This document shows positions 4,789 through 60,271 of a stretch of 60,271 nucleotides of DNA, piece after piece; positions within the stretch are counted from its first letter, which is position 1, and each line of letters starts with the position of its first letter. A program made the translations under genes and the position numbers. Below the pieces are notes generated by a model. That model saw only the letters and a list, made by a program, of their open reading frames with translations, was not told the DNA's origin and did not search any database. The stretch is from a virus: IMG/VR virus record IMGVR_UViG_3300044825_000512, positions 1 through 60,271 of that record; one strand, given 5' to 3'.

Positions 4789-4804
4789 GCCCTAATCGTA
4801 ACTC

Positions 4805-31338: not shown

Positions 31339-32736
31339 ATGCCACAAAATACTTATGTAGCCTTAGACCAAGTGACTTTAGAAAGCAATGGCGGTCCTGT
31401 CACTTTTAGTAACATTCCACAAACATATACAGATTTGCGTATTGTGATAAGTGGCGGTTTTACAAACTCAGGTTATTTAATCGGATTCCGAGTTGGAAAT
31501 GGCTCAGTAGATACCTCAAGCAACTACTCGTATGTAACTGGTCGAGGTCCTACTACATCTGCGATGCGAAAAAATAATATGACTTTTGGTGGTTTATTGA
31601 GTCAAGGTTCAAATACACTCAATAATGTTGTCATTGTTGATTTAATGAACTATTCAAGCACTTCTACTAATAAAACTTGGCTTTCACGATATGGCAGTTC
31701 CAGTATTCACGCAGAAATGGTAAATGGTCTTTGGCGTAGTAACAGCGCAATCAACATTATTTCTATTGCTGAATGTGGAGATGGTGGTAGCGGTACTTTT
31801 AACACAGGAAATCTTCTTGCTGGTTCGACTTTCACTTTGTATGGAATCAAGGCTTGGGTTTCAGAAGGCACAACAAAGGCAACAGGTGGCTATGTGTATG
31901 AAGATTCAACACATTATTATCATGCTTTTTTATCTTCAGGAACCTTTACTCCATTACAGTCTTTGACAGCAGATATTCTTGTCGTTGCTGGTGGCGGTGG
32001 TGGTGGTTACTTCCATGGTGGCGGTGGAGCGGGCGGTCTTTTGGCATTTTCATCACAGTCTCTTAGCGCTACAAACTACACTTGTACGGTTGGTAGCGGT
32101 GGTGCTGGTGATATAAATACAGTAGGCGCCGCAAGTGATGGAAGTTCTTCGCAGTTTGGCGCTTTGACTGCCACGGTTGGTGGTGGTGGTGGTGGTTCTT
32201 TTGCCAATGATGGAAATAACGATGGTCGCGCTGGCGGTTCAGGCGGTGGCGGTGGTGGTGCTGATGACGGTGGCGCTATTGGTACAGGCGGTGCTAATAC
32301 ATCAGGTCAAGGTTTTGCTGGTGGAAATGGTACAAAGCGAAGTACATATCATGCTGGCGGTGGCGGTGGTGGCGCTGGTGGTGCTGGACAAACCTCTCCT
32401 GATGCTGATACTCCAGGAAACGGTGGTATAGGAGCAACATCTTCATTTATTCAAGCAATCGGAGTGGCTTGTAATCTCGGACAAAATGTTGGTGGCACAT
32501 ATTATTTTGCTGGCGGTGGTGGCGGTGGTGCTAATAGCGCTACAACACGCGGAGTTTTGAAAAACGGTGGCGCTGGTGGCGGTGGTGGTGGTGGTTATGG
32601 AACTACTAATACTAATGGCGAATCAGGTTTAGGAAATACTGGCGGTGGCGCTGGTGGAAACGCTAGGGATGATGGCAACACAACCCAAAAATCCCGTGGT
32701 GGTTCAGGAATCATCGTCATTCGGTATGCGAAGTAA
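31339..32736 (+). CDS. Glycine-rich minor tail/fibre protein
   Basis: 465 aa. N-domain ending FTLYGIK, then YYHAFLSSGTFTPL, then long GGGG(A/S)G tracts ending GGSGIIVIRYAK. Confidence 0.8.
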   Translation: MPQNTYVALDQVTLESNGGPVTFSNIPQTYTDLRIVISGGFTNSGYLIGFRVGNGSVDTSSNYSYVTGRGPTTSAMRKNNMTFGGLLSQGSNTLNNVVIVDLMNYSSTSTNKTWLSRYGSSSIHAEMVNGLWRSNSAINIISIAECGDGGSGTFNTGNLLAGSTFTLYGIKAWVSEGTTKATGGYVYEDSTHYYHAFLSSGTFTPLQSLTADILVVAGGGGGGYFHGGGGAGGLLAFSSQSLSATNYTCTVGSGGAGDINTVGAASDGSSSQFGALTATVGGGGGGSFANDGNNDGRAGGSGGGGGGADDGGAIGTGGANTSGQGFAGGNGTKRSTYHAGGGGGGAGGAGQTSPDADTPGNGGIGATSSFIQAIGVACNLGQNVGGTYYFAGGGGGGANSATTRGVLKNGGAGGGGGGGYGTTNTNGESGLGNTGGGAGGNARDDGNTTQKSRGGSGIIVIRYAK

Positions 32737-32748
32737 AGGAGATAAATA

Positions 32749-34167
32749 ATGGCAGAAAATCATGTTCTTTTAGAAAGCGTTTATCTCACACAAACTGTTT
32801 CCTCTGTAACTTTTGATAATATCCCACAAACAGGATATACAGATTTGCGTTTAGTAATGAGTGTGCGTAAATCTGATTCTACTACTTTATCTTCAAGTTA
32901 TATTACTTTTAATGGCTCTACTACTGGTTATGGCACTAAAAGATTATATGGCAATGGCGCAGGTGCGAATAGCGATACAAACCCAACTGGAACCGCCTCC
33001 GCTTACATAGGAAGTTCGAACTCCGCTACTTCATTAGCAAACTTATTTTCGTCTGTGGAAGTTTATATTCCTAACTATACATCCACTTCTGCTAAACCCT
33101 TTTGGTCAGAAATGATTCAAGAAGATAATGTCACTAATGGGTATCAGTTCATAATCGGAAATAGTTGGAGCGGTACTTCTGCTATATCATCAATAACAAT
33201 AACAGGTGATGCCAACTATGTTGCTTATAGTAGTTTTCATCTTTATGGAATAGCAAAGAGTTCAATAACACCCGTAACTGGACCATTCGCAGAAGGTGGC
33301 AACATTGTTGCCAATGATGGAACTTATTGGTATCACGCGTTTTTAAGTTCAGGAACATTTACTCCTCTCAAGGCTTTGACTTGTGATTATGTTGCCGTTG
33401 CTGGCGGTGGTGGTGGCGGCTCGGTTTATTACGGCGGTGGTGGTGGTGCTGGCGGAGTAGTTTCCAATAGCGCACAACAATTAACGACTAATACCAATTA
33501 CACAGTTATCGTAGGTGCTGGTGGAACTTCTGTTTATTCAAGCGCAAATGCGGCAACAAGTGGCTCAAATTCTAATTTTACAGGTGGAACTTTATCTTTG
33601 ACGGCGGCAGTTGGCGGTGGTCGTGGCGGACAATACGCATCTCCAACTGGAGGTGCTAGCGGTGGCTCAGGCGGTGGCGGTGGTGGCTCAGGTGGCGGAG
33701 ATAATGTTTGGACAGGTGGTTCAGGAACTTCAGGACAAGGTAATGCTGGTGGAAATGCTTTAGCGTATTACACAGTAGATGACCAAAAGTATTCAGGCGG
33801 TGGCGGTGGTGGCGCATCTGCGGCTGGTGGTCGTGGTTTTTCATTACAAGGCGGAACTGGCGGTGCTGGAACTAGCGCATACTCAACTTGGGGTTCTGCG
33901 ACAAACACAGGACAAAATTCAGGTGGAACTTACTACTATGCTGGTGGTGGTGGCGGCGGAACGGCAACAGGTAACGCTGGAAATGGAACACCTGGAACTG
34001 CTGGTGTAGGTGGTGGTGGTGTTGGCGGAAATCCAGTATCAGGTACAGCAAGTGGAACCGCTAATACAGGTGGTGGCGGTGGTGGTGGTTCATCGGCAAC
34101 CGCATCATTAGGAACAGGCGGTCAAGGTGGTTCAGGAATAGTTATTATCAGATACTCAATGGTGTAA
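32749..34167 (+). CDS. Glycine-rich minor tail/fibre protein (paralog)
   Basis: 472 aa. N-domain ending FHLYGIAK, then WYHAFLSSGTFTPL and Gly tracts ending GGSGIVIIRYSMV. Confidence 0.8.
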   Translation: MAENHVLLESVYLTQTVSSVTFDNIPQTGYTDLRLVMSVRKSDSTTLSSSYITFNGSTTGYGTKRLYGNGAGANSDTNPTGTASAYIGSSNSATSLANLFSSVEVYIPNYTSTSAKPFWSEMIQEDNVTNGYQFIIGNSWSGTSAISSITITGDANYVAYSSFHLYGIAKSSITPVTGPFAEGGNIVANDGTYWYHAFLSSGTFTPLKALTCDYVAVAGGGGGGSVYYGGGGGAGGVVSNSAQQLTTNTNYTVIVGAGGTSVYSSANAATSGSNSNFTGGTLSLTAAVGGGRGGQYASPTGGASGGSGGGGGGSGGGDNVWTGGSGTSGQGNAGGNALAYYTVDDQKYSGGGGGGASAAGGRGFSLQGGTGGAGTSAYSTWGSATNTGQNSGGTYYYAGGGGGGTATGNAGNGTPGTAGVGGGGVGGNPVSGTASGTANTGGGGGGGSSATASLGTGGQGGSGIVIIRYSMV

Positions 34168-50880: not shown

Positions 50881-51161
50881 TGGCAGAAGAGATTCAACCA
50901 ACTTTAGGAGAAGTTATGCGTCGGCTTGACGACCTCACAATGGAAGTCAAGCAGATGAACCTAAATGTGAGTCAGACCTATCTTCGCAAAGATGTCTATG
51001 ATTCAGATACGGAAAGAATCTCTCAAGCCATGGAACACATAACAGACCGTCTTGAAAAGATGGAGAGTCGCTCCGAGTGGGTCATTCGTACCGTCGGAGC
51101 GCTCTTCATTGCCACAGTTGTCGGTGCCTCCATGTATGTTGGACAAATCATCGGGTTGTAG
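50880..51161 (+). CDS. C-tail-anchored membrane protein (lysis accessory/holin-like)
   Basis: 93 aa. A coiled N-terminus, then the TM segment VIRTVGALFIATVVGASMYVGQIIGL. Confidence 0.6.
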   Translation: MAEEIQPTLGEVMRRLDDLTMEVKQMNLNVSQTYLRKDVYDSDTERISQAMEHITDRLEKMESRSEWVIRTVGALFIATVVGASMYVGQIIGL

Positions 51162-51164
51162 GGC

Positions 51165-51194
51165 TTGACAATCTAAACCCCAGTTTAGTACCCT
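51165..51194 (+). promoter_or_regulatory. Promoter: TTGACA-N18-TACCCT overlapping the AACCCCAGTTTAG motif
   Basis: ggcTTGACAatCTAAACCCCAGTTTAGTACCCT, followed by GAGAGGAG and the ATG at 51218. Confidence 0.6.
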
Positions 51195-51217
51195 CTCCCA
51201 TAACGAGAGGAGTCCAC

Positions 51218-51760
51218 ATGGACAACGCAACAAACGCAGTACCAGTTGATGATTTTGAAATCATCGAAGAACCAGCCCGTGAGCCATTCATCGTAGATGA
51301 TGATTCAAAAGCAGATTGGGCTATGAGAAAACTTGCCTCTATCCGACGCAAGCAAGCCGATAACAAAGCCATCTTTGATAAGGAAATTCAGAGAGTCACA
51401 GAATGGCTTGAGAAGGTCAATACAGCCCTTGAAAGAGATGCTGAATGGTTTGAGGCTAACCTAAAGCCATACGCGCTCCTACAACGCTCTGAGGGGCGTA
51501 AATCGGTAGTTCTGCCCCACGGCACCATCAAGACCACCGCAGGTCGCGTCAAGTTTGATATTGAGAACGAAGAACAGTTCATCGCATGGGCTGAGACCAG
51601 CGCACCTGAATTAGTTCGAATCAAAAAAGAAATTGATAAAAAAGCCCTAGGTGCTTTGAATCAAGATGCTGATAAGGTAATATCAACCCAAGGTGAAATT
51701 GTGCCATCGGTCAAAGTTGTACCTGCCGAGGTATCAGTCTCATTTGTAATCGCAGAGTAG
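51218..51760 (+). CDS. Gam-like / Gp157-like host-nuclease inhibitor (recombination accessory)
   Basis: 180 aa from the ATG at 51218. Coiled-coil N-terminus plus ...VVLPHGTIKTTAGRVKFDIENEEQFIAWAE...VRIKKEIDKKAL. Upstream of the ERF gene. Confidence 0.55.
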   Translation: MDNATNAVPVDDFEIIEEPAREPFIVDDDSKADWAMRKLASIRRKQADNKAIFDKEIQRVTEWLEKVNTALERDAEWFEANLKPYALLQRSEGRKSVVLPHGTIKTTAGRVKFDIENEEQFIAWAETSAPELVRIKKEIDKKALGALNQDADKVISTQGEIVPSVKVVPAEVSVSFVIAE

Positions 51761-51771
51761 AGAGAGGAACT

Positions 51772-52443
51772 ATGGAAACCAAAGCATTATCAATCGCGCA
51801 AGCCCTCAATGAAGTCATGAAGGCAGTTGGAGGCATCGCAAAGAAAGACCGCAATCAAGCCCAAGGATTCAATTTCCGTGGAATTGATTCAGTAGTAAAC
51901 GCAGTATCTCCACAACTACAAAAGTTTGGAGTCATTGTTGTACCGACAGTTGAGGACTATTCCTATGACACAGTTGAGATTGGTCGTAATCGAACAGCGA
52001 TGGGTCATGTCAAAGTCCGAGTTACTTATACATTCATCGGTTCTAACGGTGACGCTATCAAAACAACAGTTGTCGGTGAAGCAATGGACTCAGGTGATAA
52101 GGCGACAGCCAAGGCAATGTCAGTCGCATTTAGAACCGCATTGCTCCAAGCACTTTGCCTACCAACAGATGAACCCGACCCTGACGCACAATCCTATGAG
52201 CGTTCCTCCGCTGATGATGTCTTAGCGCCTAGCGCAATTCTTACCAAGATTCATCAAGCGACTGATTTGGATTCACTTGCTTCAATCGGGCAGTACATCA
52301 CAGCGAACAAGGATAAGTTCAATCCCGAGTTGCTTGAACAATTCCGCGCTAAGTTCAAAGAACAACAGACCAAGTTGAACCCACCGAAATTGGAAGAGGA
52401 TGCCAATGTCGATACAACAGATACAACCCGAGTTACCGTATAA
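51772..52443 (+). CDS. erf: ERF-family single-strand annealing recombinase
   Basis: AQALNEVMKAVGGIAKKDRN...FNFRGIDSVVNAV...DKATAKAMSVAFRTALLQALCLPT. Confidence 0.85.
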   Translation: METKALSIAQALNEVMKAVGGIAKKDRNQAQGFNFRGIDSVVNAVSPQLQKFGVIVVPTVEDYSYDTVEIGRNRTAMGHVKVRVTYTFIGSNGDAIKTTVVGEAMDSGDKATAKAMSVAFRTALLQALCLPTDEPDPDAQSYERSSADDVLAPSAILTKIHQATDLDSLASIGQYITANKDKFNPELLEQFRAKFKEQQTKLNPPKLEEDANVDTTDTTRVTV

Positions 52444-52783
52444 CGGAACTTCAGGGCATAGCGGAACAGAGACAAGTAAAGGGCGAGCGCTCGACGCAGA
52501 CAGGTCAGGAAAGACTGCGTTGCGTCAGGCGCAAGCCTTGAACCTGCTCGGTCAAAGACAGGTCACAGGAATTACTTGGAAAGAATTTTCTGAGATTACT
52601 GGACTTCATCATGGAACTGCTTCGGGTGTATTGTCCGTCCTCCATAAAGCGGGACGCATTGCGCGACTCAAAGAGACTCGCAAGGGCTGTAAAGTCTATG
52701 TTGATTTGAGATGTATCAATGGTCGAGTAGTTGAAATTCAAGGGCGAAAGAAATGTTGCCCTCATTGCGGAGGTAATTTGTGA
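52400..52783 (+). CDS. Winged-helix DNA-binding protein with C-terminal CxxC
   Basis: GITWKEFSEITGLHHGTASGVLSVLHKAGRIARL. The start is ATG at 52400 or 52406. It overlaps the erf 3-prime end. Confidence 0.7.
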   Translation: MPMSIQQIQPELPYNGTSGHSGTETSKGRALDADRSGKTALRQAQALNLLGQRQVTGITWKEFSEITGLHHGTASGVLSVLHKAGRIARLKETRKGCKVYVDLRCINGRVVEIQGRKKCCPHCGGNL

Positions 52784-53496
52784 GCATACGATGGATAACA
52801 AAAGTTTGGAGCGACTCTCCTTATGATGGCACCAAACTTTTGATTCATCTTGCGCTCGCCGATATATCTCATGATGATGGACGCTTCTTTGCTTCTCAGT
52901 CAAACCTTGCTTCCAAGGGTCGTTGCTCTATCGAGTATGTCCGAAAGGTCATCAACGAGATGATTGCCGACGGTCATTTGAAGATAATCACCAAGGGAAA
53001 CTCTCGAGGCAACGCCACGGTGTACCAGTTGATTTGGAAGAAACTACCCAACTCAGTTGGGGAGGAACAAAGTTTAGGAGAGGTAGAACTCCCCAACTCG
53101 GAGGGGGACAACTCCCCAACTCTGATGCCCTCACTCCCCAACTCCACTCCGTACCATCCGTCCTATACATCCGTCCTATCTACAACAAAGAGCGACGAGA
53201 CTGCTATCGCAGTCGTCGCCGATTGGGAACAAGTTGCTAAACAATGGTGGGAAAAGCAAAGAGTCAAACCTTTAGGAAAAGGCGCTTGGCACTCGCTTCT
53301 TCAGATATGTAAAGCGGCAGAGGCTCGAGGGTATTCCAAAGAGCAGATTGAACAAGCACTTGATTACATCGGAACAGTTCCGACTATGAGACAGATGGAT
53401 TTAGTTTTACGAGGAGTGGGGGTCAAGACAAAACATGAACAGTCTGCTCATCGAGCGATTGAACTCGCAGAGAAACTCAGAGATGAATCTATCTGA
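52780..53496 (+). CDS. Replication initiator-like protein (N-terminal HTH_36-type wHTH)
   Basis: WITKVWSDSPYDGTKLLIHLALADISHDDGRFFASQSNLASKGRCSIEYVRKVINEMIADGHL. The central region encodes repeated LPNS peptides over DNA iterons. Confidence 0.7.
   Translation: MSIRWITKVWSDSPYDGTKLLIHLALADISHDDGRFFASQSNLASKGRCSIEYVRKVINEMIADGHLKIITKGNSRGNATVYQLIWKKLPNSVGEEQSLGEVELPNSEGDNSPTLMPSLPNSTPYHPSYTSVLSTTKSDETAIAVVADWEQVAKQWWEKQRVKPLGKGAWHSLLQICKAAEARGYSKEQIEQALDYIGTVPTMRQMDLVLRGVGVKTKHEQSAHRAIELAEKLRDESI
53044..53144 (+). repeat. Four phased direct repeats CT(A/C)CCCAACTC (candidate origin iterons) inside the initiator gene
   Basis: Copies start at 53044, 53089, 53112 and 53134, with spacings of 45, 23 and 22 bp. 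The first sits in the palindrome CCCAACTcAGTTGGG. Confidence 0.7.
53155..53180 (+). repeat. Tandem 13-bp repeat CATCCGTCCTAT(A/C) x2
   Basis: catccgtcctata and catccgtcctatc lie immediately after the iterons. Confidence 0.8.
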
Positions 53497-53875
53497 CATC
53501 GCAATCCTTCTCGGTTACATCGGCATCTATGACCTACGCATCCAAGTGGATGAACTCAAGGTTCGCGCTTGGGCGCAGTCTTTAGATTCTGATATTGATT
53601 TGGAAGAAGCAAAGAAAATTGTTTCTGCCCATTACTCCAATCATGACACGGCTATCAACCCATCTCACATAAATCGGGAGTGGCGTCATAGACTAGCCAG
53701 CCGTAGAGAACGCGAGCGCTCGCAGAGAATGTCTCTTGAGTATGAAGAGAATGAAAAGCGGAAGGCATCTCCTGAAGCGGTTGCGAAGTATATGGCGGAG
53801 ATACGACAAATTTTGAATAGAGGAACTGATGCTTCTTTGGAAACTGATAATGGACAGGTGGCATCTGACTCATGA
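53483..53875 (+). CDS. Hypothetical protein
   Basis: ATG at 53483 (MNLSDIAILLGYIGIYDLRIQVDELKVRAW...), with a 14-nt overlap with the initiator gene. Confidence 0.65.
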   Translation: MNLSDIAILLGYIGIYDLRIQVDELKVRAWAQSLDSDIDLEEAKKIVSAHYSNHDTAINPSHINREWRHRLASRRERERSQRMSLEYEENEKRKASPEAVAKYMAEIRQILNRGTDASLETDNGQVASDS

Positions 53876-53988
53876 AGATATTTCGATTTGTCGATTGGTA
53901 TTACAAGTGGCGGAACAGACGAGCGCAAAAGTATGCCCTGCTTGCTTGGACGCCATCGCGGATGAAAGACTCCAATGGCAAAGCCTAA
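53872..53988 (+). CDS. Small basic ORF (below ORF-track cutoff)
   Basis: ATGA overlap with the previous stop. 38 aa, MKIFRFVDWYYKWRNRRAQKY.... A competing ORF, 53829..54071, exists in another frame. Confidence 0.3.
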   Translation: MKIFRFVDWYYKWRNRRAQKYALLAWTPSRMKDSNGKA

Positions 53989-54361
53989 ACTTAGAGTTGA
54001 TGATGAGACTCGATTCGCAGTTCTCGCCCGAGCCTTCTACAAGTGCGAAAGATGTGGACGAGACTTCCTAGGATTTCCAGTCTCAGTTCATCACAGACGC
54101 CCTCGAATGATGGGTGGCAGTCGCAACGAGGACTTACATAAACCAGCGAATCTTATTGTTTTATGCGGGTCAGGGACTTCAGGTTGTCACGGTTGGGTTG
54201 AATCCAATCGAGATAAAGCAAGGGAGTTGGGCTACCTGATTCAAAAAGTTGAGTCTGCTCATGAGATTCCTTTTCAGGATAACAATGCGATTTGGTGGTA
54301 CATCGACAACGATTGTCAGAAAAGACAACTTGACACAACTCAAGGTGTACCTCATGTTTAG
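53975..54361 (+). CDS. HNH endonuclease
   Basis: CERCGR...VSVHHRRPR...NLIVLCGSGTSGCHGWVE. Confidence 0.85.
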   Translation: MAKPKLRVDDETRFAVLARAFYKCERCGRDFLGFPVSVHHRRPRMMGGSRNEDLHKPANLIVLCGSGTSGCHGWVESNRDKARELGYLIQKVESAHEIPFQDNNAIWWYIDNDCQKRQLDTTQGVPHV

Positions 54362-54364
54362 TCT

Positions 54365-54772
54365 ATGGATTGCCTTTGCTACGCAGACGACGCTGAACAA
54401 CTCATCTATCGACTTGAGTTGGCACAGCGCCCTTACACGACCAATGCGGAGCGTTCGGGCAACAGATGGGAAAGAGCGAAAATCACAAAAGAGTGGCGCT
54501 CGGCTTTTCAACTATTGGCTAAATATGAGAAGATACCCCCTATGGCGTGGATTAGCGTCACAGTTGAACCTCACCAAAAAGGCGGGAGGCTTCAAGATGT
54601 AGGTGCTTGTAATCCATCAGTCAAAGCGGCGATTGACGGAATAATTGATGCGGGAGTTCTTCCTGACGATTCTCCGCAATATGTTCGCTCATTGATTTTT
54701 TTACCGCCAAAGAACGATAGAAATTCGTTAGTGATTTATATTCGAGGAGCAAAGAAAGAGAGGACGATATGA
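54365..54772 (+). CDS. rusA: RusA-like Holliday junction resolvase
   Basis: PYTTNAERSGNRWERAKITKEWR...DVGACNPSVKAAIDGIIDAGVLPDDSPQYV. Confidence 0.8.
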   Translation: MDCLCYADDAEQLIYRLELAQRPYTTNAERSGNRWERAKITKEWRSAFQLLAKYEKIPPMAWISVTVEPHQKGGRLQDVGACNPSVKAAIDGIIDAGVLPDDSPQYVRSLIFLPPKNDRNSLVIYIRGAKKERTI

Positions 54773-54975
54773 ATTGGGACTTGATATGGACAGCAGTTGG
54801 TTTATCCATTGCTGGTTTTTTCATACTACCGTTTTATATTGCTATGCTAATCGCTTACAAAAAAGCGATGCTAAAAATTGAATTGGAGTTTGTCGCAACG
54901 GCGAATCAGATTCATAAGAAAGTTAGATTTGATGATGCTGTCGAACGCCTGTTCGAAGAAGGAGAAGCGATATGA
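54769..54975 (+). CDS. Small membrane protein
   Basis: 68 aa with the TM segment WTAVGLSIAGFFILPFYIAMLIAY. ATGA-coupled on both sides. Confidence 0.65.
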   Translation: MNWDLIWTAVGLSIAGFFILPFYIAMLIAYKKAMLKIELEFVATANQIHKKVRFDDAVERLFEEGEAI

Positions 54976-55271
54976 GTACAGTAATGGAAGCAACGGAGTT
55001 AGACGGCAAGGGACTTGATGAGGTCAAACTTTTGACCGATGCGATTAGAACACATCAATCGCAGATTCAAGATTTAGGTAAGCGTCGTAAGCAGTTGATT
55101 CTTCGACTACGCAAACAACGCATCACCTACCGAGAGATTGCTGAAGCAATGGGTGTATCAGAGCAGTTGATTTACAAAATTATCCGCAACGATATTGACC
55201 GAGTACCTGAGTACGATGCTGAAGGCAACTTGATTCGTAGACGAGGACGACCAGCGAAACCGCTTGTCTAA
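54972..55271 (+). CDS. HTH DNA-binding protein (sigma-70 region 4 / LuxR-like)
   Basis: ITYREIAEAMGVSEQLIYKIIRN, with basic tail RRRGRPAKP. Confidence 0.7.
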   Translation: MSTVMEATELDGKGLDEVKLLTDAIRTHQSQIQDLGKRRKQLILRLRKQRITYREIAEAMGVSEQLIYKIIRNDIDRVPEYDAEGNLIRRRGRPAKPLV

Positions 55272-56341
55272 TGAAGTTCATTGAACTTTTTGCTGGTATC
55301 GGCGCATTTCGACTTGGACTTGAAAGAACAGGTCATGAGTGCGTTTGGGCTAATGAATGGCTAGAGAGACCGAGGAGTATTTATGCCCGAAATTTCGGAG
55401 AACAACCTGACGGACGAGATATTAGAGATGTTTCCGCTGGAGACATTCCTGATGCCGACCTCCTCGTTGGAGGATTCCCTTGTGCGACTTTTTCAGTTGC
55501 GGGAAAGCGAACTGGATTCTCTTTGGATGACACCCGAGGGACACTCGCTTTTGAAATGTTTAGACTCGCTCACGAAAAATCAATACCGTATATCCTCTTT
55601 GAGAATGTCAAAGGACTCCTCAACCACGACGGAGGAAGAACCTTCGAAATCATCCTCGAAGTCTTGGATGGCTTGGGGTATGACTGTCAATGGGAATTGC
55701 TTGACAGCCAAAATTTCGGAGTCCCGCAACACCGAGAAAGGGTTTTCCTTATCGGACATCTTAGAGGAAACCCCCGACCAAAAGTATTTCCTATCGGAAC
55801 AGCAAGTGGAAGCAATGCTGAGTCGAACAAGGAAGAACGAGAAGGAAGGCAGGGGTTTTTCTCCCACATTTCTCCGACCCTTGACGCCCACTACTACAAA
55901 GGAGGAAACTCCCGACAATATGTAGTCGAGCAGTTCATCCGCCGAGATAACGCTTTTAGAACTTTTGAGAATGTTGCTCCAACACTTCTCGCTCACATGG
56001 GAACTGGCGGTAACAATGTTCCTTTCGTGAGACCAGTCTTGGATGTAGCCCGAGTAAATAAGAAACCAAACGGGCGACTCATCAAAGATGATGGAGACCC
56101 GATGTACACGATTACAGCACAAGACCGACACGGAGTTCTCACAGGTGATAGTGAAGGTTTTGCTCTAAGAAAACTAACTCCTTTGGAGTGTGAACGACTT
56201 CAAGGTTTACCTGATGGATGGACGGAGTATTACGAAGATGGACGAAGAGTTTCAGATTCCGAAAGATACGAACGGTGCGGGAGAACCATCACTATCCCAG
56301 TCGTGGAAGCGATTGGTCGAAGGCTTCATGAGTTCTACTGA
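55271..56341 (+). CDS. DNA (cytosine-5) methyltransferase-family enzyme with atypical motifs IV (PCA) and X (G-R instead of G-N)
   Basis: Motifs: I FAGIGAF, IV GGFPCATFS (Cys71, TGT 55481..55483), VI ENVKGL, VIII QHRERVFLIG, then LTPLECERLQGLPDGW. The motif X region reads RCGRTITIPV (Arg338, AGA 56282..56284). Confidence 0.9.
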   Translation: MKFIELFAGIGAFRLGLERTGHECVWANEWLERPRSIYARNFGEQPDGRDIRDVSAGDIPDADLLVGGFPCATFSVAGKRTGFSLDDTRGTLAFEMFRLAHEKSIPYILFENVKGLLNHDGGRTFEIILEVLDGLGYDCQWELLDSQNFGVPQHRERVFLIGHLRGNPRPKVFPIGTASGSNAESNKEEREGRQGFFSHISPTLDAHYYKGGNSRQYVVEQFIRRDNAFRTFENVAPTLLAHMGTGGNNVPFVRPVLDVARVNKKPNGRLIKDDGDPMYTITAQDRHGVLTGDSEGFALRKLTPLECERLQGLPDGWTEYYEDGRRVSDSERYERCGRTITIPVVEAIGRRLHEFY

Positions 56342-56975
56342 GCCATTCTCATTCGATACGATTCAAAACTTTGATGAGCATATTGCTCAATCAATCCCGA
56401 ACTATCACACACTAACTGAAGCCATCTGTGACTTGAGTACATACTTCATGACCGAAGATACTCAAGTGATTGACTTGGGTTGCTCAACTGGCAAACTACT
56501 TGAGCGACTTCCACACCGCGGTAAGAAAATTGGAATTGATATAGCCGACAATCTTTTGCCTGAGTCCCATCATGAAACTATCTATGTTCGCAAAGACCTT
56601 CGAGCCTTCAACGGTTTTGGTAAGTCGAGCCTCATCCTCTCGCTCTTCACACTTCAGTTCATTCCGTATGAGGACAGACCACACATCCTAAGCGTCATCT
56701 ATGAATCTCTAGTTGAGGGTGGGGCTTTTATATGGGCTGAGAAAGTTCGAGAAGAATCGGGCGAACTCGAGCAGGTTATCAACGGCGCTCATTACGATTT
56801 CAAACGCAAAGCCTTTACCGCTGAACAGATACTCAACAAAGAGCGCGACCTACGCCCGATGATGAAAGTAAACTCATCAGTTCGAAATCAGATATTGGCA
56901 GAGAACGCAGGGTTCACAGTAAGTACGATGTTTTGGAAGTTCTACAATTTCGAGGCTTGGTTGTATATCAAATGA
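56328..56975 (+). CDS. cmoA: CmoA-like carboxy-S-adenosylmethionine synthase / class I SAM-dependent enzyme
   Basis: 215 aa that aligns along its whole length with E. coli CmoA from memory. Matching strings: QSIPNY, QVIDLGCSTG, FTLQFI, GGAFIWAEK, HYDFKR, AGF and FYNF. It overlaps the MTase gene by 14 nt. Confidence 0.8.
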   Translation: MSSTEPFSFDTIQNFDEHIAQSIPNYHTLTEAICDLSTYFMTEDTQVIDLGCSTGKLLERLPHRGKKIGIDIADNLLPESHHETIYVRKDLRAFNGFGKSSLILSLFTLQFIPYEDRPHILSVIYESLVEGGAFIWAEKVREESGELEQVINGAHYDFKRKAFTAEQILNKERDLRPMMKVNSSVRNQILAENAGFTVSTMFWKFYNFEAWLYIK

Positions 56976-58159
56976 AAGCGAAGATAAAAGTTGGACAAGT
57001 TGATTCAGTTCCTATCGCATCCCTTGAGGCGTACCCGACAAATCCTCGTCGTGGCGATATTGAAGCGATTGCTCAATCTCTCAAAGCCCATGGGCAGTAC
57101 AGACCGATTGTTGTACAAGTTGGCTCTAACTTTATCCTCGCGGGGAATCACACATACAAAGCGGCGAGGAAACTCGGCTGGAAGAAAATCAAAGTCACCT
57201 ATGTCGATGTAGATGAAGAGAGCGCTCGCAAGATTGTCTTGGCTGATAATCGATTGACCGACCTTGCCACTTACAACGAGCCATTGCTCAAGAATCTTTT
57301 ATCGGCTTTACCTGAACTCGATGGCACGGGCTTTACTCAATCTGAGGTTGAGACTTTAGATAGGCTCATGACTGGCAAGGATAAAGACCCTATAAGCGAT
57401 TCTAAGTCTTTACCTAGCGACCCTGAAGTAAAGGTTAGCGCTTGGAAGTTTACGGTTGAACTCGAGGCTTACAAGGCTTGGAAGGAGCAGTTATACACCG
57501 AGGCTCCGACAAAACAGAAAGCCATCAAAGCAATCAAAACCCGATTGGGATTACCTGAACGCAAACCAGTTGAACCTCAACCTCACCTTGAGCGTTCTGA
57601 TTCAACTCCTGAAGATATAGAGACAGTTCCAATCAACGAGGTCAAAGTTCACCCTCTCAACCCGCGTGAGGGCGATATAGGCTCAATCATCACCTCCCTT
57701 GAGGTAATGGGTCAGTACCGACCTATCGTGGTCAATAAGCGCACCAAGCACATTCTTTCGGGAAACCATACTTATCAAGGAGCAGTCCAGTTGGGATGGG
57801 AGAAGATTGCCGTTCATTGGGTTGATGTTGATGATGTCGAGGAGATAAAGATTTTGATTGTGGATAATCGAACAAGCGACTTGGCAACTTATGACCCGCA
57901 GGAACTCAACAAACTTTTGACTTCAACAGGATTGAAGGGAACAGGATTTACCGCTGAAGAGGTCGCAGAGATTCTCTCGGGTGGAAAATCCAAGCCTGGG
58001 CATATCCCCGTAGGTCGAACAACAATTCGAGTGGGTGAACATTCAATGAGAGTTCACACAGAGGATTTGAATGAATGGGCTAATTCAATCTATGGATGGA
58101 AAGATGTCGCTGAGTTATTATTGATACCACTAGAGGCGTGTACAACCGAGGTAGAATAA
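56972..58159 (+). CDS. Protein with two tandem ParB/Srx-like N-terminal domains
   Basis: ATGA-coupled. The domains are YPTNPRRGDIEAIAQSLKAHGQYRPIVV...LAGNHTYKAARKLGW and HPLNPREGDIGSIITSLEVMGQYRPIVV...LSGNHTYQGAVQLGW. Confidence 0.85.
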   Translation: MKAKIKVGQVDSVPIASLEAYPTNPRRGDIEAIAQSLKAHGQYRPIVVQVGSNFILAGNHTYKAARKLGWKKIKVTYVDVDEESARKIVLADNRLTDLATYNEPLLKNLLSALPELDGTGFTQSEVETLDRLMTGKDKDPISDSKSLPSDPEVKVSAWKFTVELEAYKAWKEQLYTEAPTKQKAIKAIKTRLGLPERKPVEPQPHLERSDSTPEDIETVPINEVKVHPLNPREGDIGSIITSLEVMGQYRPIVVNKRTKHILSGNHTYQGAVQLGWEKIAVHWVDVDDVEEIKILIVDNRTSDLATYDPQELNKLLTSTGLKGTGFTAEEVAEILSGGKSKPGHIPVGRTTIRVGEHSMRVHTEDLNEWANSIYGWKDVAELLLIPLEACTTEVE

Positions 58160-58163
58160 AGCC

Positions 58164-58682
58164 ATGACGACGGCAGTAGTAAAGAAGAAGAGCGGTAAAC
58201 CCAAGGGCAGACCAAAGGGGACAACCGTTCTACTCGACGACACAAGACGCGATGAACTTATCAATCTGATTGTTCTCGGTGTTCCAGTTAGCAAAGCGGT
58301 AGGCATGGTCAATCTTGCTGAGTCCACTTTCTACCATTGGATGAGCCGAGGAATGACAGAGCGGGATAGATTGGCGACGATTCCTGATGCCAAACCTAAA
58401 CCCGAGGAGAAAATATATTTAGATTTTTTAGAGTCTTTGACACGGGCGAGAAACGAAGCAATCGCTAAAAAGGTCGCAGTTATCTCAAGTGCGGCGAGTC
58501 AAGGTGATTGGAAAGCATCGGCTTGGTGGCTTGAGCGTCAGGTACCTGAAGAGTTCGGGCGCATTGATAAGCAAGAGGTTCTAAGCCATTCGGTGTCGGA
58601 GGTTCGAGTTACAGTCACCATGGGAGAACTTCAAGAGAAGATAGCCAAGGTTCTCGAGTCACGCAAAACAAGAAGCGCCTAA
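58164..58682 (+). CDS. terS: Terminase small subunit
   Basis: 172 aa. Basic N-terminus KKKSGKPKGRPKG and HTH GVPVSKAVGMVNLAESTFYHWM. Directly upstream of terL. Confidence 0.8.
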   Translation: MTTAVVKKKSGKPKGRPKGTTVLLDDTRRDELINLIVLGVPVSKAVGMVNLAESTFYHWMSRGMTERDRLATIPDAKPKPEEKIYLDFLESLTRARNEAIAKKVAVISSAASQGDWKASAWWLERQVPEEFGRIDKQEVLSHSVSEVRVTVTMGELQEKIAKVLESRKTRSA

Positions 58683-58685
58683 CTC

Positions 58686-60271
58686 ATGAGCGAGAGACTT
58701 CTCGATAAGTTCCTCGAAAGTGATTCCATCAAACAAGCCGAGTTGCTTGCGATGCTCACACCTGAAGAGCGCCATGCCTTATCGGTCATGCTTGATGCTG
58801 AGTTAGAGAATCCATGGGCTAGATGGCAAAGCGACCCAGTTGGATTCGTTGAAGAAGGATTGGGCGAGACTCTTTGGAGTAAACAGAAAGAGATTCTCAA
58901 TTCCCTTTTGATAAATAAAAGAACAGTAGTTCCAGCCTGTCACGCGCCTGGGAAATCTCACCTTGCGGCGAGAGCAGTTGCGTGGTGGTTATCAACGCAT
59001 CCAGCGGGAACAGCGGTAGCAATTACAACAGCGACTACACACCGACAGGTGAGAAACATTATGTGGCCGCATATTCGAAGAGTTCATGCTAAACATAATC
59101 TGCCTGGGGAAGCCGATACGGTTCAATGGAAAATCAATGGCACCGTAGTTGGATACGGATTTAGTCCGAGCGCTCATGATGAAACAGCGGTTCAGGGTAT
59201 CCACGCTCCAAACCTTTTAGTTGTTGTTGATGAGGCTGGAGGTTTATCGGACACAATCGGTGGCGCACTTGAATCTCTCATGACGGGTGGAAATACAAAA
59301 CTCCTTGTACTTGGAAACCCTCCAACAGATACAGAACAAACATGGTTCGAAAGAATCTGCTCGAGTCCGCTTTACAATGTGATTCCGATTGGTGCCTATG
59401 ACACTCCTAACTTTACGGGTGAGGCTACGGGCAGATGTCGCTCATGTCCTGATTACATAGAAGCCCACGAAGTCAAGACTCACCTCGTTGATAAAACTTG
59501 GGTTGATGATGTCATTTCTGAATTCGGTGAGGATTCGCCATTCGTTGAAGCCCGTGTACTAGCGCAGTTCCCTAAGTCGAGTACGGGCAAAGTCATCCCG
59601 TTCGCATGGGCTGAGTTATCTACCGAGAATGAAACACCGCTTGAATCTAATCTGATTCGCCTTGGGGTGGATATTGCTTCAGATGGTGGAGATGAGTTCG
59701 TTATTGCTAGGGCTGACGGATACAAGGTAAGCATTGCTCATCGCTCATCGGGCAAGCAAAACGCCAACGCGGTTGATGTGGCTGGCGTGGTCATGCGAGA
59801 GATTGAAACCTGTATCAAGATTCATCAAGACCGAGGATTACGAGACCGAGTTCGAGTCAAGGTCGATACCATCGGATTAGGTTGGGGTGTTGTATCCATG
59901 TTGGATAGATGGGTCAAGGAGCGCCAGTTACCCGCTGACATTATTGGAGTCAATGTAGCCGAGAAGCCTAAAGACCAAGCCAAGTTCAAGAATCAAAGAG
60001 CCGAGATGTGGTGGAACGCCCGACAGTTGATACAGCCCAAGGATGGCAAGCAGGATGTCCGATTGAATGTAGATAGATTTGTTCTCTCGCAGTTGGCAGG
60101 ACCAACCTATACATCGGACGCATCGGGTCGAGTCGTGATTGAATCCAAGGTCGATATGAAGAAACGGGGTGTCGCTTCGCCTGACCGTGCTGAGGCAATA
60201 CTCTTAGCCCTCTACGAAAACCGCTCCGTCATTCAAAGCATCGCGCCAATCTCGATAGGACAATCAAACCC
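58686..60271 (+). CDS. terL: Terminase large subunit (runs off the window end; completed at 1..146)
   Basis: Hand-translated. Walker A ACHAPGKSH, Walker B LLVVVDEAG, and nuclease-domain motifs RLGVDIASDGGDEF and VDTIGLGWGV. There is no stop before 60271. Confidence 0.9.
   Translation, partial: MSERLLDKFLESDSIKQAELLAMLTPEERHALSVMLDAELENPWARWQSDPVGFVEEGLGETLWSKQKEILNSLLINKRTVVPACHAPGKSHLAARAVAWWLSTHPAGTAVAITTATTHRQVRNIMWPHIRRVHAKHNLPGEADTVQWKINGTVVGYGFSPSAHDETAVQGIHAPNLLVVVDEAGGLSDTIGGALESLMTGGNTKLLVLGNPPTDTEQTWFERICSSPLYNVIPIGAYDTPNFTGEATGRCRSCPDYIEAHEVKTHLVDKTWVDDVISEFGEDSPFVEARVLAQFPKSSTGKVIPFAWAELSTENETPLESNLIRLGVDIASDGGDEFVIARADGYKVSIAHRSSGKQNANAVDVAGVVMREIETCIKIHQDRGLRDRVRVKVDTIGLGWGVVSMLDRWVKERQLPADIIGVNVAEKPKDQAKFKNQRAEMWWNARQLIQPKDGKQDVRLNVDRFVLSQLAGPTYTSDASGRVVIESKVDMKKRGVASPDRAEAILLALYENRSVIQSIAPISIGQSN
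60145..60271. repeat. Direct terminal repeat identical to 1..127
   Basis: Exact 127-nt match to the start of the window. Confidence 0.95.

What the first reader, a model, noticed from the sequence alone, without database searches (positions are those of the whole stretch)
55271..58159. C5-cytosine DNA methyltransferase with an Asn-to-Arg cofactor-pocket change, coupled to a CmoA-type carboxy-SAM synthase: candidate natural DNA 5-carboxymethylcytosine system
Seen in sequence: ORF 55271..56341 carries the C5-MTase motifs in canonical order (I FAGIGAF, IV GGFPCATFS, VI ENVKGL, VIII QHRERVF, then LTPLECERLQGLPDGW). Motif IV reads PCA instead of the usual PCQ. The motif X position reads C-G-R-T-I (Arg338), where canonical enzymes have G-N-(A/S)-V. 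The next ORF (56328..56975) overlaps it by 14 nt and aligns end to end with E. coli CmoA as I remember it: HIAQSIPNY vs MIQRSVPGY, QVIDLGCSTG vs QVYDLGCSLG, FTLQFI vs FTLQFL, GGAFIWAEK vs GGALVLSEK, HYDFKR vs HHDFKR, FYNF vs CFNF.

Established knowledge: CmoA converts SAM plus prephenate into carboxy-SAM for tRNA cmo5U34. As I recall, an engineered CpG methyltransferase (M.MpeI N374K/R) with the conserved motif X Asn changed to a basic residue switches to carboxy-SAM and writes 5-carboxymethylcytosine. That base was described as unnatural.

Inference: this phage brings its own Cx-SAM synthase next to an MTase that naturally carries the enabling basic residue. It may therefore carboxymethylate its own cytosines as an anti-restriction hypermodification. 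The ATGA-coupled double ParB/Srx protein and terS/terL immediately downstream place the module next to the DNA packaging genes.
Basis: partly seen in the sequence, partly recalled or inferred. Interest (0 to 1): 0.92.

Follow-up and report, generated by a model that had tools for sequence, protein, structure and literature searches.

The report
Phage CmoX–CmoA DNA carboxymethylcytosine module
A complete ~60-kb phage genome encodes a carboxy-SAM synthase beside a cytosine methyltransferase whose cofactor pocket looks rebuilt to transfer a carboxymethyl group; this kind of DNA-modification system was shown experimentally in another phage in December 2025, and the copy here belongs to a separate enzyme lineage and has no follow-up ligase.

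Summary
ORF 55271-56341 is a complete C5-cytosine methyltransferase. Its Arg338 sits in the column of M.HhaI Asn304, and its motif IV reads PCA instead of PCQ. ORF 56328-56975 is a CmoA homologue that overlaps it by 14 nt.

Yang et al. (Nat Commun, Dec 2025, PMC12783734) showed that Synechococcus phage S-B43 uses CmoA (Cx-SAM synthase) and CmoX (Arg350 contacts the carboxylate; PDB 8YF3) to write 5-carboxymethylcytosine. A ligase, CmoY, then converts it to a glycine amide.

What is new here is the variant:
- The window's enzyme is only 30% identical to SpCmoX and 55% identical to M.HhaI over the N-terminal catalytic domain.
- It has GFPC, not the SPPC motif that the published census required.
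- It sits in a monophyletic clade nested among canonical Q/N-type methyltransferases.
- It shares with SpCmoX the signature "small residue after the catalytic Cys plus E-R-x-G-R".
- In 65 of 65 related viral loci this signature is followed by a CmoA gene; in 0 of 13 canonical loci is it.
- The circular genome has no CmoY-like ligase, so free 5cxmC may be the final base.
- The double ParB is a backbone gene of Laroyevirus-like phages.

The parts
54972..55271 (+). 99-aa helix-turn-helix protein. Its stop (TAA 55269-55271) overlaps the methyltransferase ATG by 1 nt. Likely first gene of the translationally coupled run; its role in the module is unknown.
   Evidence: Pfam HTH_23, E 9.6e-09. phrog_6223 transcriptional repressor. 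Junction read. Conserved in the same position in L005-L010.
55271..56341 (+). CmoX-like DNA cytosine C5-(carboxy)methyltransferase, 356 aa, of the GFPC-A / E-R-x-G-R lineage.
   Evidence: Pfam PF00145, E 4.6e-71. TIGR00675, 257.8 bits. M.HhaI, E 2e-47. 8YF3, E 5e-11. Signature columns. CmoA linkage.
55478..55486 (+). Motif IV codons Pro70-Cys71-Ala72: the catalytic Cys followed by Ala where canonical enzymes have Gln (M.HhaI Gln82).
   Evidence: translation. Column 72 is Ala in 15/15 clade members, Gln in 105/105 canonical neighbours and Ser in SpCmoX. Gln82 lines the transferable-group pocket of M.HhaI (PMC3526304).
56270..56284 (+). Motif X codons Glu334-Arg335-Cys336-Gly337-Arg338. Arg338 replaces the conserved Asn (M.HhaI N304, SpCmoX R350) and is the presumed carboxylate-binding residue.
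   Evidence: HMMER alignment to M.HhaI. Alignment to SpCmoX. Discriminating columns 334, 335 and 338. E-R-x-G-R is invariant in 120 SpCmoX-lineage clusters. R350 contacts the Cx-SAM carboxymethyl group in 8YF3 (PMC12783734).
55757..56161 (+). Variable target-recognition region (about aa 163-297) with two 'PTL-A-H---GG' segments (aa ~201-215 and ~237-251). Relatives carry one, two or three such segments.
   Evidence: Alignment of length variants of 320-395 aa. Specificity not determined.
56328..56975 (+). CmoA homologue (predicted carboxy-SAM synthase), 215 aa. It overlaps the methyltransferase gene by 14 nt.
   Evidence: TIGR00740, E 7.8e-28. YecO/CmoA structures, E 1.6e-21 to 1.4e-17. 37% identity, E 1e-45, to the validated SpCmoA. 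phrog_4752, E 1.6e-56. SAM-contact residues conserved.
56972..58159 (+). 395-aa protein with two ParB_N (ParB/Srx) domains, start codon in ATGA with the CmoA stop. It is a backbone gene of this phage group. Membership of the modification module is unproven.
   Evidence: Pfam ParB_N x2. phrog_8071 end to end, E 5e-168. 41% identity, E 1e-88, to Laroye gp2. ParBc neighbours of CmoX are noted, with function unknown, in PMC12783734.
58164..58682 (+). Small terminase subunit (context: the next gene in the same co-directional run).
   Evidence: phrog_4102, E 1.5e-29.
58686..60271 (+). Large terminase subunit. It runs across the circular junction (window 1-127 repeats 60145-60271).
   Evidence: phrog_2. 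52-53% identity to Arthrobacter phage terL. 127-nt terminal overlap.

Best explanation
The two overlapping genes form a CmoA-CmoX DNA carboxymethylation module. The steps below are inferred from homology to validated enzymes; none was measured here.

1. The CmoA homologue converts host SAM plus prephenate into carboxy-SAM. This is inferred from 37% end-to-end identity to the experimentally validated SpCmoA and from conserved SAM-contact residues.
2. The methyltransferase binds Cx-SAM instead of SAM. The Asn that packs against the methyl group in canonical enzymes is Arg338, which would salt-bridge the carboxylate. The bulky Gln after the catalytic Cys is Ala72, which would make room. Positions -4 and -3 of motif X are Glu-Arg, as in the crystallised SpCmoX. 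All of this is inferred from alignment.
3. Cys71 attacks C6 of a flipped-out target cytosine, and C5 takes the carboxymethyl group. This is the standard C5-methyltransferase chemistry, with motifs I, IV, VI, VIII, IX and X all present.
4. Phage DNA then carries 5-carboxymethylcytosine at the enzyme's target sites, which are still unknown, and is shielded from host nucleases.
5. The complete circular genome contains no recognisable CmoY-type amide ligase. The free acid 5cxmC is therefore probably the end product here, unlike in S-B43, where it is converted to the glycine amide.

The genes are co-transcribed and translationally coupled with an upstream HTH gene and the downstream ParB-terS-terL genes. 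Expression would then fall around the time of DNA packaging; this timing is an inference.
For: Cofactor pocket:
- Arg338 aligns with M.HhaI Asn304 and SpCmoX Arg350.
- In 8YF3, Arg350 contacts the Cx-SAM carboxymethyl group. Wild-type SpCmoX accepts only Cx-SAM (PMC12783734).
- The engineered changes N374K in M.MpeI and N377K in M.MedI, at the same Asn, give or boost carboxymethyl transfer (PMC12015181).
- In M.HhaI, Gln82 and Asn304 flank the transferable group. Q82A lowers methylation about 16-fold, and N304A gave the largest activity gain with extended cofactors (PMC3526304).

Signature and conservation:
- Only five columns separate the window's clade (15 sequences) from 105 canonical neighbours: 72 Q->A, 321, 334 K->E, 335 ->R, 338 N->R. 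SpCmoX shares E334, R335 and R338 and has a small Ser at 72.
- The SpCmoX lineage keeps PCS and E-R-x-G-R in 120/120 clusters.
- All 120 close homologues of the window enzyme keep GFPCATFS and G-R.
- The SpCmoX cofactor contacts F25, E47, F48 and D69 correspond to F7, E29, W30 and D50.

Linkage to CmoA:
- 65/65 IMG/VR loci with the PCA/G-R enzyme have a CmoA homologue immediately downstream, although the CmoAs have diverged to about 22% identity. None of 13 PCQ/G-N loci has one.

CmoA itself:
- TIGR00740 gives E 7.8e-28 and 97.8 bits. The validated SpCmoA scores a similar 115.6 bits.
- Y39, D62, G64, S66, D89, D117 and F137 of E. coli CmoA are conserved (residue roles from PMC3663124).

No alternative substrate or follow-up enzyme in the genome:
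- No CmoB-type or second methyltransferase-fold gene and no tRNA gene.
- No CmoY-like ligase: tblastn with SpCmoY gives a best E of 0.067, and there is no ligase family in the Pfam or PHROG scans of the larger ORFs.
- The genome is complete, as shown by the 127-nt terminal overlap.
Against: - No biochemical or mass-spectrometric data exist for this phage or this enzyme lineage.
- The methyltransferase lacks the SPPC motif used to define candidate CmoX enzymes in the published census. It is only 30% identical to SpCmoX.
- The window CmoA scores below NCBIfam's curated CmoA cut-off (97.8 against 193.3 bits).
- In the family alignment it has Glu172, not Arg, in the column of E. coli Arg199, the residue that salt-bridges the carboxylate. 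The same is true of the validated SpCmoA, and the pairwise HMMER alignment places Arg173 there instead.
- Asn90 and Asn132 of E. coli CmoA are not conserved.
- SpCmoX R350N was inactive with both cofactors. Arg is therefore necessary in that scaffold, but its sufficiency for Cx-SAM selectivity in a HhaI-like scaffold is untested.
- About a dozen ORFs of unknown function remain, so an unrecognised downstream modifying enzyme cannot be excluded.
- The AlphaFold2 model was of low confidence (pLDDT 51.9). No structural check of the pocket was possible.
Confidence: 0.8

Rival explanations
1. 5cxmC is made but is only an intermediate. An unrecognised phage enzyme (one of the unknown-function ORFs, or the ATP/CTP-binding ParB/Srx-fold protein) or a host enzyme derivatises the carboxylate further, as CmoY does in S-B43, so the virion base is a hypermodified amide or ester.
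For: - In S-B43 only the glycine amide, not 5cxmdC, is found in virion DNA.
- Five more distant members of this same PCA/G-R lineage carry an Asn_synthase-type ligase between the methyltransferase and CmoA.
- ParBc-domain genes accompany 1,660 of the published CmoX contigs, with function unknown.
- Several window ORFs match only PHROGs of unknown function.
Against: - There is no CmoY-like sequence in the complete genome.
- No ATP-grasp, adenylate-forming or amidoligase family appears in the Pfam or PHROG scans.
- The double ParB is orthologous to a gene of phage Laroye, in which the stretches inspected show no annotated C5-methyltransferase or CmoA.
- Most loci of the lineage, including long contigs, have the methyltransferase-CmoA pair without a ligase.
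Confidence: 0.2
2. The methyltransferase is an ordinary SAM-dependent 5-methylcytosine enzyme. The CmoA homologue works independently of it, either remodelling host tRNA (cmo5U) or draining the host SAM pool as an anti-defence measure.
For: - All catalytic motifs of a normal C5-methyltransferase are present, and the N-terminal domain is 55% identical to M.HhaI.
- The authors of PMC12783734 raise SAM depletion by phage CmoA as an open possibility.
- PHROGs labels the CmoA family 'tRNA methyltransferase'.
Against: - The Asn that is invariant in 105/105 neighbouring canonical enzymes is Arg, and the Gln is Ala.
- Q82A alone cuts methylation about 16-fold in M.HhaI.
- Wild-type SpCmoX, with the same signature, does not use SAM at all.
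- The signature and CmoA co-occur in 65/65 loci against 0/13. Independent functions would not predict this.
- No CmoB homologue or tRNA gene is present.
Confidence: 0.06
3. The methyltransferase is catalytically dead or serves as a DNA-binding or regulatory protein, and the pocket substitutions reflect decay.
For: SpCmoX R350N shows that changes at this position can abolish activity.
Against: - The substitutions are fixed and co-vary across a clade that has diverged to about 48% identity.
- Catalytic Cys71, ENV, QxRxR and the SAM-binding residues are all invariant. This pattern indicates purifying selection on an active enzyme.
Confidence: 0.02

Closest known systems
CmoA-CmoX(-CmoY) system of Synechococcus phage S-B43 (Yang et al., Nat Commun 2025, PMC12783734; PDB 8YF3)
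   Same: - A phage-encoded CmoA sits next to a C5-methyltransferase homologue.
- Arg occupies the motif X Asn column, with E-R at -4/-3 and a small residue after the catalytic Cys.
- The CmoAs are 37% identical end to end.
- ParB-domain neighbours are reported for many such contigs.
   Different: - The methyltransferases are only 30% identical.
- Motif IV is GGFPCA here against GSPPCS in SpCmoX, so the window enzyme fails the SPPC filter of the published census.
- The window clade is nested among canonical HhaI-like enzymes, and SpCmoX is equidistant from all of them.
- The gene order here is X-A, against A-Y-X in S-B43.
- There is no CmoY ligase in the complete genome.
- The carrier is a ~60-kb Laroyevirus-like siphovirus, not a 214-kb cyanomyovirus.
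- The target sequence is unknown; SpCmoX targets GC.
Engineered carboxymethyltransferases M.MpeI N374K and M.MedI N377K (PMC12015181)
   Same: A basic residue replaces the motix X Asn and enables transfer from Cx-SAM to cytosine C5.
   Different: - Those are single laboratory substitutions (to Lys) in CpG-specific Mycoplasma enzymes that still methylate.
- The window enzyme is natural. It has Arg plus three further co-varying changes, and it comes with its own cofactor synthase.
M.HhaI and its pocket-engineered variants Q82A/Y254S/N304A (PMC3526304)
   Same: - It is the closest solved structure by sequence, with about 55% identity over residues 1-162 and E 2e-47.
- The two natural substitutions of the window enzyme fall exactly on two of the three positions engineered to accept larger transferable groups.
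   Different: - M.HhaI is a SAM-dependent GCGC methylase of a restriction-modification system.
- The target-recognition region is not alignable.
- The engineering used Ala at 304, not a charged residue.
Bacterial CmoA/CmoB tRNA cmo5U pathway (E. coli CmoA 4GEK/4IWN, H. influenzae YecO 1IM8)
   Same: Same fold and SAM-binding residues. CmoA family models are the best hits.
   Different: - No CmoB partner is present; the acceptor enzyme here is a DNA methyltransferase.
- The score is below the curated equivalog cut-off.
- The column of E. coli Arg199 is Glu in 59/65 phage CmoAs, including the validated SpCmoA.
Arthrobacter phages of genus Laroyevirus (Laroye, Salgado, Kovu)
   Same: - Portal 57-58% and terL 52-53% identical, with a similar genome size of ~60 kb.
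- The double-ParB gene is orthologous.
- DNA-modification-type genes are clustered just upstream of the terminase genes.
   Different: - Laroye carries ParB-like genes, a PAPS reductase and an unrelated methyltransferase there. Neither a C5-methyltransferase nor a CmoA is annotated in the stretches inspected.
- The window is 46% G+C, against about 65% in the Laroye stretch examined.

Membership tests
C5-cytosine DNA methyltransferase (Pfam PF00145 / TIGR00675) | Conserved motifs I (FxGxG), IV (PC), VI (ENV), VIII (QxRxR), IX and X in canonical order, with a score above the curated cut-off. | tested here: met
   PF00145 scores 240.3 bits against 22 over residues 1-352. TIGR00675 scores 257.8 bits against 100.65. 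Motifs read. They are invariant in the clade.
C5-cytosine DNA methyltransferase (canonical, SAM-dependent) | Gln after the catalytic Cys (PCQ) and Asn in motif X (G-N). | tested here: not met
   The window has Ala72 and Arg338. 105/105 neighbouring canonical clusters have Gln and Asn.
CmoX, DNA cytosine C5-carboxymethyltransferase (PMC12783734) | Arg at the position of SpCmoX R350 (M.HhaI N304), which contacts the Cx-SAM carboxylate. | tested here: met
CmoX, DNA cytosine C5-carboxymethyltransferase (PMC12783734) | The 'SPPC' motif IV used with R350 to define the 5,615 candidates of the published census. | tested here: not met
   The window has G-F-P-C (GGFPCATFS). The SpCmoX lineage has GSPPCSAFS in 120/120 clusters. 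This motif was a census filter and has no demonstrated mechanistic role.
CmoX, DNA cytosine C5-carboxymethyltransferase (PMC12783734) | Genomic association with a phage CmoA gene. | tested here: met
   14-nt overlap in the window. 65/65 related loci carry CmoA, against 0/13 canonical loci.
CmoX, DNA cytosine C5-carboxymethyltransferase (PMC12783734) | Cx-SAM-dependent formation of 5cxmC on DNA, with no activity on SAM. | not testable with these tools
   This needs enzyme assays or LC-MS/MS.
CmoA, carboxy-SAM synthase | Score above the curated equivalog cut-off of TIGR00740 or NF011995. | tested here: not met
   97.8 bits against 193.3, and 66.5 against 285. The experimentally validated SpCmoA also fails, with 115.6 and 102 bits. 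The cut-off therefore reflects bacterial orthologs, not activity.
CmoA, carboxy-SAM synthase | Residues that contact the SAM moiety in E. coli CmoA: Y39, D62, G64, S66, D89, N90, D117, N132, F137 (PMC3663124). | tested here: inconclusive
   Y26, D49, G51, S53, D71, D90 and F111 are conserved. N90 is Ile and N132 is Leu, as in SpCmoA (Leu, Leu).
CmoA, carboxy-SAM synthase | Arg199 of E. coli CmoA, which salt-bridges the carboxylate. | tested here: inconclusive
   The family alignment puts Glu172 in that column (Glu in 59/65 phage CmoAs and in SpCmoA), with invariant Lys171 before it. The pairwise HMMER alignment puts Arg173 there.
CmoA, carboxy-SAM synthase | Close, full-length homology to an enzyme with demonstrated Cx-SAM synthase activity. 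| tested here: met
   37% identity over 215/231 residues, E 1e-45, to SpCmoA. Activity of SpCmoA is reported in PMC12783734.
CmoY, 5cxmC amide ligase (Asn-synthase-like) | Presence of an Asn_synthase/AMP-forming ligase gene in the genome. | tested here: not met
   tblastn with SpCmoY against the window gives a best E of 0.067. No such family appears. A positive control exists in relatives: L071 matches Asn_synthase at E 2.3e-11.
ParB/Srx superfamily | ParB_N domain. | tested here: met
   Two ParB_N stretches. phrog_8071 matches at E 5e-168.

The most novel reading that the evidence does not exclude
The GFPC-A / E-R-x-G-R clade is a second, independently evolved origin of natural DNA carboxymethyltransferases. 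It arose from HhaI-like methyltransferases by the same four pocket changes as the cyanophage CmoX lineage, and the published SPPC-based census missed it. In ligase-less complete genomes such as this one, free 5-carboxymethylcytosine would be the final base in virion DNA. That negatively charged base has not yet been observed as an end product in any native phage, because S-B43 virions contain only the glycine amide.
Probability: 0.45. Interest if true: 0.55.

Novelty: new variant of a known kind. Interest (0 to 1): 0.42.

Why it matters
The kind of system is already established, so this window does not reveal a new DNA base. Its value lies in three points:
1. Convergence on the same few pocket residues (small residue at Gln82, Glu-Arg-x-Gly-Arg in motif X) in two methyltransferase lineages about 30% identical gives a sharper, scaffold-independent rule for recognising Cx-SAM-dependent enzymes. 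It also suggests that the published count of 5,615 candidates is an underestimate.
2. A HhaI-like scaffold with a modular target-recognition region could supply carboxymethyltransferases with new sequence specificities for sequencing and labelling methods that now rely on the engineered M.MpeI and M.MedI enzymes.
3. A complete genome without a ligase is a concrete candidate for testing whether free 5cxmC exists as a terminal modification in nature.

Tried and rejected
- **Near-identical DNA in GenBank phages:** none found. The best GenBank phage methyltransferases are at most 42% identical, so no cultured phage carries a close homologue of this enzyme.
- **Scan of GTDB genomes for the methyltransferase:** only four distant canonical homologues at 34-38% identity. 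This gave no host clue.
- **Cluster look-up of NCBI-sourced relatives:** no names or accessions that identify a host.
- **Supplementary files of PMC12783734:** searched for IMG/VR identifiers and for GFPC/SPPC strings to see whether this lineage was in the census. Nothing was found, but the data file is truncated, so this is uninformative.
- **Kim et al. 2013 (CmoA mechanism):** not held in the library. I used Byrne et al. 2013 instead.
- **AlphaFold2 on an alignment of 32 close homologues:** mean pLDDT 51.9, with the target-recognition region below 40. This is too poor for a fold search or pocket inspection, so I ran none.
- **Module copy number versus tetranucleotide avoidance:** I tested whether the number of target-recognition modules tracks which tetranucleotides are avoided. 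It does not. The 323-aa enzyme (L008, L009) goes with TGCA and TTAA being tolerated, the opposite of what protection by an extra module would predict. I therefore read the differences in avoidance as host restriction repertoires, not as methyltransferase specificity.
- **ParB as a dedicated module component:** considered and down-weighted because of the Laroye ortholog.
- **Laroye's amidoligase and glutamine amidotransferase:** no homologue in the window.

Full report
**1. Observation**

The ORF map shows a co-directional run of overlapping genes:
- HTH protein, 54972-55271
- methyltransferase, 55271-56341
- CmoA-like, 56328-56975
- double ParB, 56972-58159
- terS, 58164-58682
- terL, from 58686

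I read the junctions base by base. TAATG joins the HTH gene to the methyltransferase. ATG 56328 lies 14 nt before the methyltransferase stop. ATGA joins CmoA to ParB. No plus-strand terminator-like site and no excess of promoter-like sites occur in 51000-60271.

The methyltransferase matches Pfam DNA_methylase end to end (E 4.6e-71) and TIGR00675 (257.8 bits). HMMER against PDB sequences aligns residues 1-162 with M.HhaI at E 2e-47. It also aligns the C-terminal segment so that query Arg338 lies opposite M.HhaI Asn304.

**2. The kind of system is already published**

A full-text search found Yang et al., Nat Commun, December 2025 (PMC12783734). In Synechococcus phage S-B43 they showed the following:
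- A phage CmoA makes carboxy-SAM, with kcat 2.33 per s.
- A C5-methyltransferase homologue, CmoX, uses only Cx-SAM to write 5-carboxymethylcytosine at GC sites.
- The 1.9 Å structure 8YF3 shows Arg350, in place of M.HhaI Asn304, contacting the carboxymethyl group.
- An Asn-synthase-like ligase, CmoY, converts 5cxmC to its glycine amide, which is the only form found in virion DNA.

Their census lists 5,615 candidate CmoX sequences, defined by an SPPC motif plus R350. Neighbouring genes comprised 4,257 CmoA, 2,251 ligase and 1,660 ParBc genes.

**3. How the window's proteins compare with the validated ones**

The CmoA homologue is 37% identical over its whole length to SpCmoA (E 1e-45). It scores 97.8 bits on TIGR00740, below the curated cut-off of 193.3. 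The validated SpCmoA scores only 115.6, so that cut-off does not separate active phage enzymes.

I aligned 65 phage CmoA homologues with the E. coli and H. influenzae proteins.
- The SAM contacts Y39, D62, G64, S66, D89, D117 and F137 (roles from PMC3663124) are conserved in the window protein.
- N90 and N132 are hydrophobic, as in SpCmoA.
- The column of E. coli Arg199, the carboxylate partner, is Glu in 59/65 phage proteins, including SpCmoA, and is preceded by an invariant Lys.
- The pairwise HMMER alignment instead places window Arg173 opposite Arg199.

The carboxylate-binding residue of phage CmoAs is therefore unresolved. The window protein behaves like the validated phage enzyme in this respect.

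The methyltransferase is only 30% identical to SpCmoX (8YF3 E 5e-11). A three-way alignment shows PCA (window), PCS (SpCmoX) and PCQ (M.HhaI) in motif IV. In motif X it shows ERCGR, ERVGR and KQFGN. SpCmoX's cofactor contacts F25, E47, F48 and D69 correspond to F7, E29, W30 and D50.

**4. A clade-wide signature**

All 120 closest clusters (65-100% identity) keep GFPCATFS and G-R.

I then examined the 150 best representatives of 50%-identity clusters. PCA always goes with G-R, and PCQ goes almost always with G-N; three PCQ sequences carry Met, Asp or Gly there.

An alignment of 130 sequences has only five columns that are at least 90% one residue in the 15 A/R sequences and at most 5% that residue in the 105 Q/N sequences. 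These are 72 (Q to A), 321 (Y), 334 (K to E), 335 (to R) and 338 (N to R). SpCmoX shares E334, R335 and R338 and has a small residue at 72. The SpCmoX lineage itself keeps GSPPCSAFS and E-R-x-G-R in 120/120 clusters.

In M.HhaI, Gln82 and Asn304 (together with Tyr254) lie next to the transferable group. Q82A lowers methylation about 16-fold, and N304A most strongly improves transfer of larger groups (PMC3526304). Asn-to-Lys at the same column turns M.MpeI and M.MedI into carboxymethyltransferases (PMC12015181). The natural substitutions therefore sit exactly where engineering has shown cofactor selectivity to reside.

**5. Linkage to CmoA**

A scan of IMG/VR returned 80 loci.
- All 65 loci in which the enzyme shows both PCA and G-R have a CmoA homologue directly downstream. 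It lies at -10 to +59 nt, or about +810-840 nt when a ligase gene intervenes.
- This holds even though the CmoAs have diverged to about 22% identity to the window's. All those long enough to test also hit E. coli CmoA.
- None of the 13 PCQ loci has one.
- Five loci (L067, L070, L071, L074, L075) carry a gene 36-38% identical to SpCmoY between the two genes. The L071 copy matches Pfam Asn_synthase.

The loci are related by descent, so these counts are not independent events. What is informative is that adjacency persists across this much divergence.

**6. Independent origin**

I built a neighbour-joining tree on 212 catalytic-domain columns.
- The A/R sequences form one clade with no intruders.
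- Under midpoint rooting the clade lies seven nodes deep among Q/N-type enzymes.
- Its sister is a single PCQ sequence with K-R-I-G-M in motif X.
- SpCmoX is equally distant from the A/R clade (0.68), the Q/N enzymes (0.70) and M.HhaI (0.69). The window enzyme is at 0.36-0.54 from Q/N enzymes.

This pattern fits two separate acquisitions of the same pocket changes. It rests on a distance tree without support values, so I treat it as likely and not shown. Because the published census required SPPC, this lineage is excluded from it by construction.

**7. Genome context**

The window ends repeat 127 nt exactly, so it is a circular assembly of about 60,144 bp. A 60,146-bp contig from another sample carries the identical protein.

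The portal (57-58%) and terL (52-53%) are closest to Arthrobacter phages of genus Laroyevirus. The G+C content is 46%, so the host is probably a different actinobacterium, one with lower G+C; this is inference only.

The synteny HTH-methyltransferase-CmoA-ParB-terS-terL recurs in all six contigs retrieved from metagenome and sequencing-run assemblies (L005-L010).

The double ParB is 41% identical end to end to Laroye gp2. Laroye carries ParB-like genes, a PAPS reductase and an unrelated methyltransferase upstream of its terminase. Neither a C5-methyltransferase nor a CmoA is annotated in the stretches I inspected. The region just upstream of the terminase genes thus looks like a slot for DNA-modification genes in this phage group, and ParB is part of the backbone.

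The complete genome has no tRNA gene and no CmoB-like or second methyltransferase-fold gene. It has no CmoY-like ligase.

**8. Mechanism and confidence**

I put 0.8 on the reading that these two genes make Cx-SAM and transfer its carboxymethyl group to C5 of cytosines in phage DNA. Within that, I put about even odds on free 5cxmC being the end product.

The target sequence is unknown. The variable region contains repeated 'PTL-A-H-GG' segments, present in one to three copies among close relatives. From memory, this resembles multispecific phage methyltransferases, so more than one target is possible.

**9. Verdict**

What remains of interest is the distinct, apparently convergent enzyme lineage, the sharper residue signature, and the ligase-less complete genome.

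Noticed in passing
window 1-60271 (whole genome): Avoidance of short palindromes is extreme and all-or-none. ACGT, AGCT, CCGG, GATC and TGCA occur 0 times and GGCC 3 times, where 161-230 are expected from base composition; TTAA occurs 15 times. GCWGC and CASTG are absent (about 90-100 expected), and many 6-mer palindromes are absent. GCGC (244), TCGA (267), CGCG (129), CATG, CTAG and GTAC are tolerated. Which sites are avoided differs among close relatives: TGCA and TTAA are present in L008, L009 and L018. A plain GC specificity like that of SpCmoX would make the avoidance of AGCT, TGCA and GGCC unnecessary, so the tolerated C-containing sites are the candidates for protection.
   Followed up: partly
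window 1-127 and 60145-60271: An exact 127-nt direct overlap of the two window ends shows a circular assembly of a complete genome of about 60,144 bp. The terL ORF runs across the junction.
   Followed up: yes
window 4222-5728 (- strand): A histone-deacetylase-family gene (PF00850, E 2.1e-55, no PHROG match) lies next to an HslV/proteasome-like peptidase gene (phrog_1040, E 3.6e-29). Both genes recur in L005; L008 and L010 keep the deacetylase-family gene with a ~187-aa neighbour that has no recorded Pfam hit. This is an unusual pair for a phage, and its function is unknown.
   Followed up: no
window 55757-56161 (methyltransferase aa ~163-297): The target-recognition region is modular. A 'PTL-A-H---GG' segment is present once (P0120, 323 aa), twice (window) or three times (P0082 and P0115, 391-395 aa). 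A second block, 'NGRLIKDDGDPMYTITAQDRHGV', is present or absent among enzymes 71-88% identical to the window enzyme in local alignment.
   Followed up: partly
L095 7488-8495 and L096 6660-7658 (Staphylococcus phages vB-SscS-F1 and SPbeta-like): In these cultured Staphylococcus phages the methyltransferase lies next to CmoA, or one gene away. It keeps PCQ in motif IV and reads V-V-G-G-V-I-N in motif X, with neither Asn nor Arg at the key column. These may be a third type of CmoA-associated enzyme, one that the Arg criterion would miss.
   Followed up: partly
P0143 (293-aa metagenomic protein): The sister of the PCA/G-R clade in the distance tree keeps PCQ but has K-R-I-G-M in motif X (Arg at -3, Met instead of Asn). 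It may represent an intermediate state.
   Followed up: no
alignment of 65 phage CmoA homologues (loci L013-L077) with window 56328-56975: Phage CmoAs, including the validated SpCmoA, have Glu (59/65) where E. coli CmoA has the carboxylate-binding Arg199, preceded by an invariant Lys. A second, more divergent CmoA subgroup (for example L045-L077, with 'TWHWKIQQGA...KEMSLAG') accompanies the more distant methyltransferases.
   Followed up: partly
L093 226-6106 and L094 9915-11934 (Arthrobacter phage Laroye): The closest cultured phage group carries three ParB-like genes, a PAPS reductase and a methyltransferase just upstream of its terminase genes. It also carries an amidoligase plus a glutamine amidotransferase at the other genome end. 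This suggests a different, uncharacterised DNA-modification set in the same genomic slot.
   Followed up: no
L049 8358-9125 and L071 13005-13787: ArdC-like anti-restriction genes (PF08401) lie 1-2 kb downstream of the methyltransferase-CmoA pair in two distant members of the lineage.
   Followed up: no
window 31339-32736 and 32749-34167: Two adjacent paralogous genes encode glycine-rich-domain proteins (PF21722) in the tail region.
   Followed up: no
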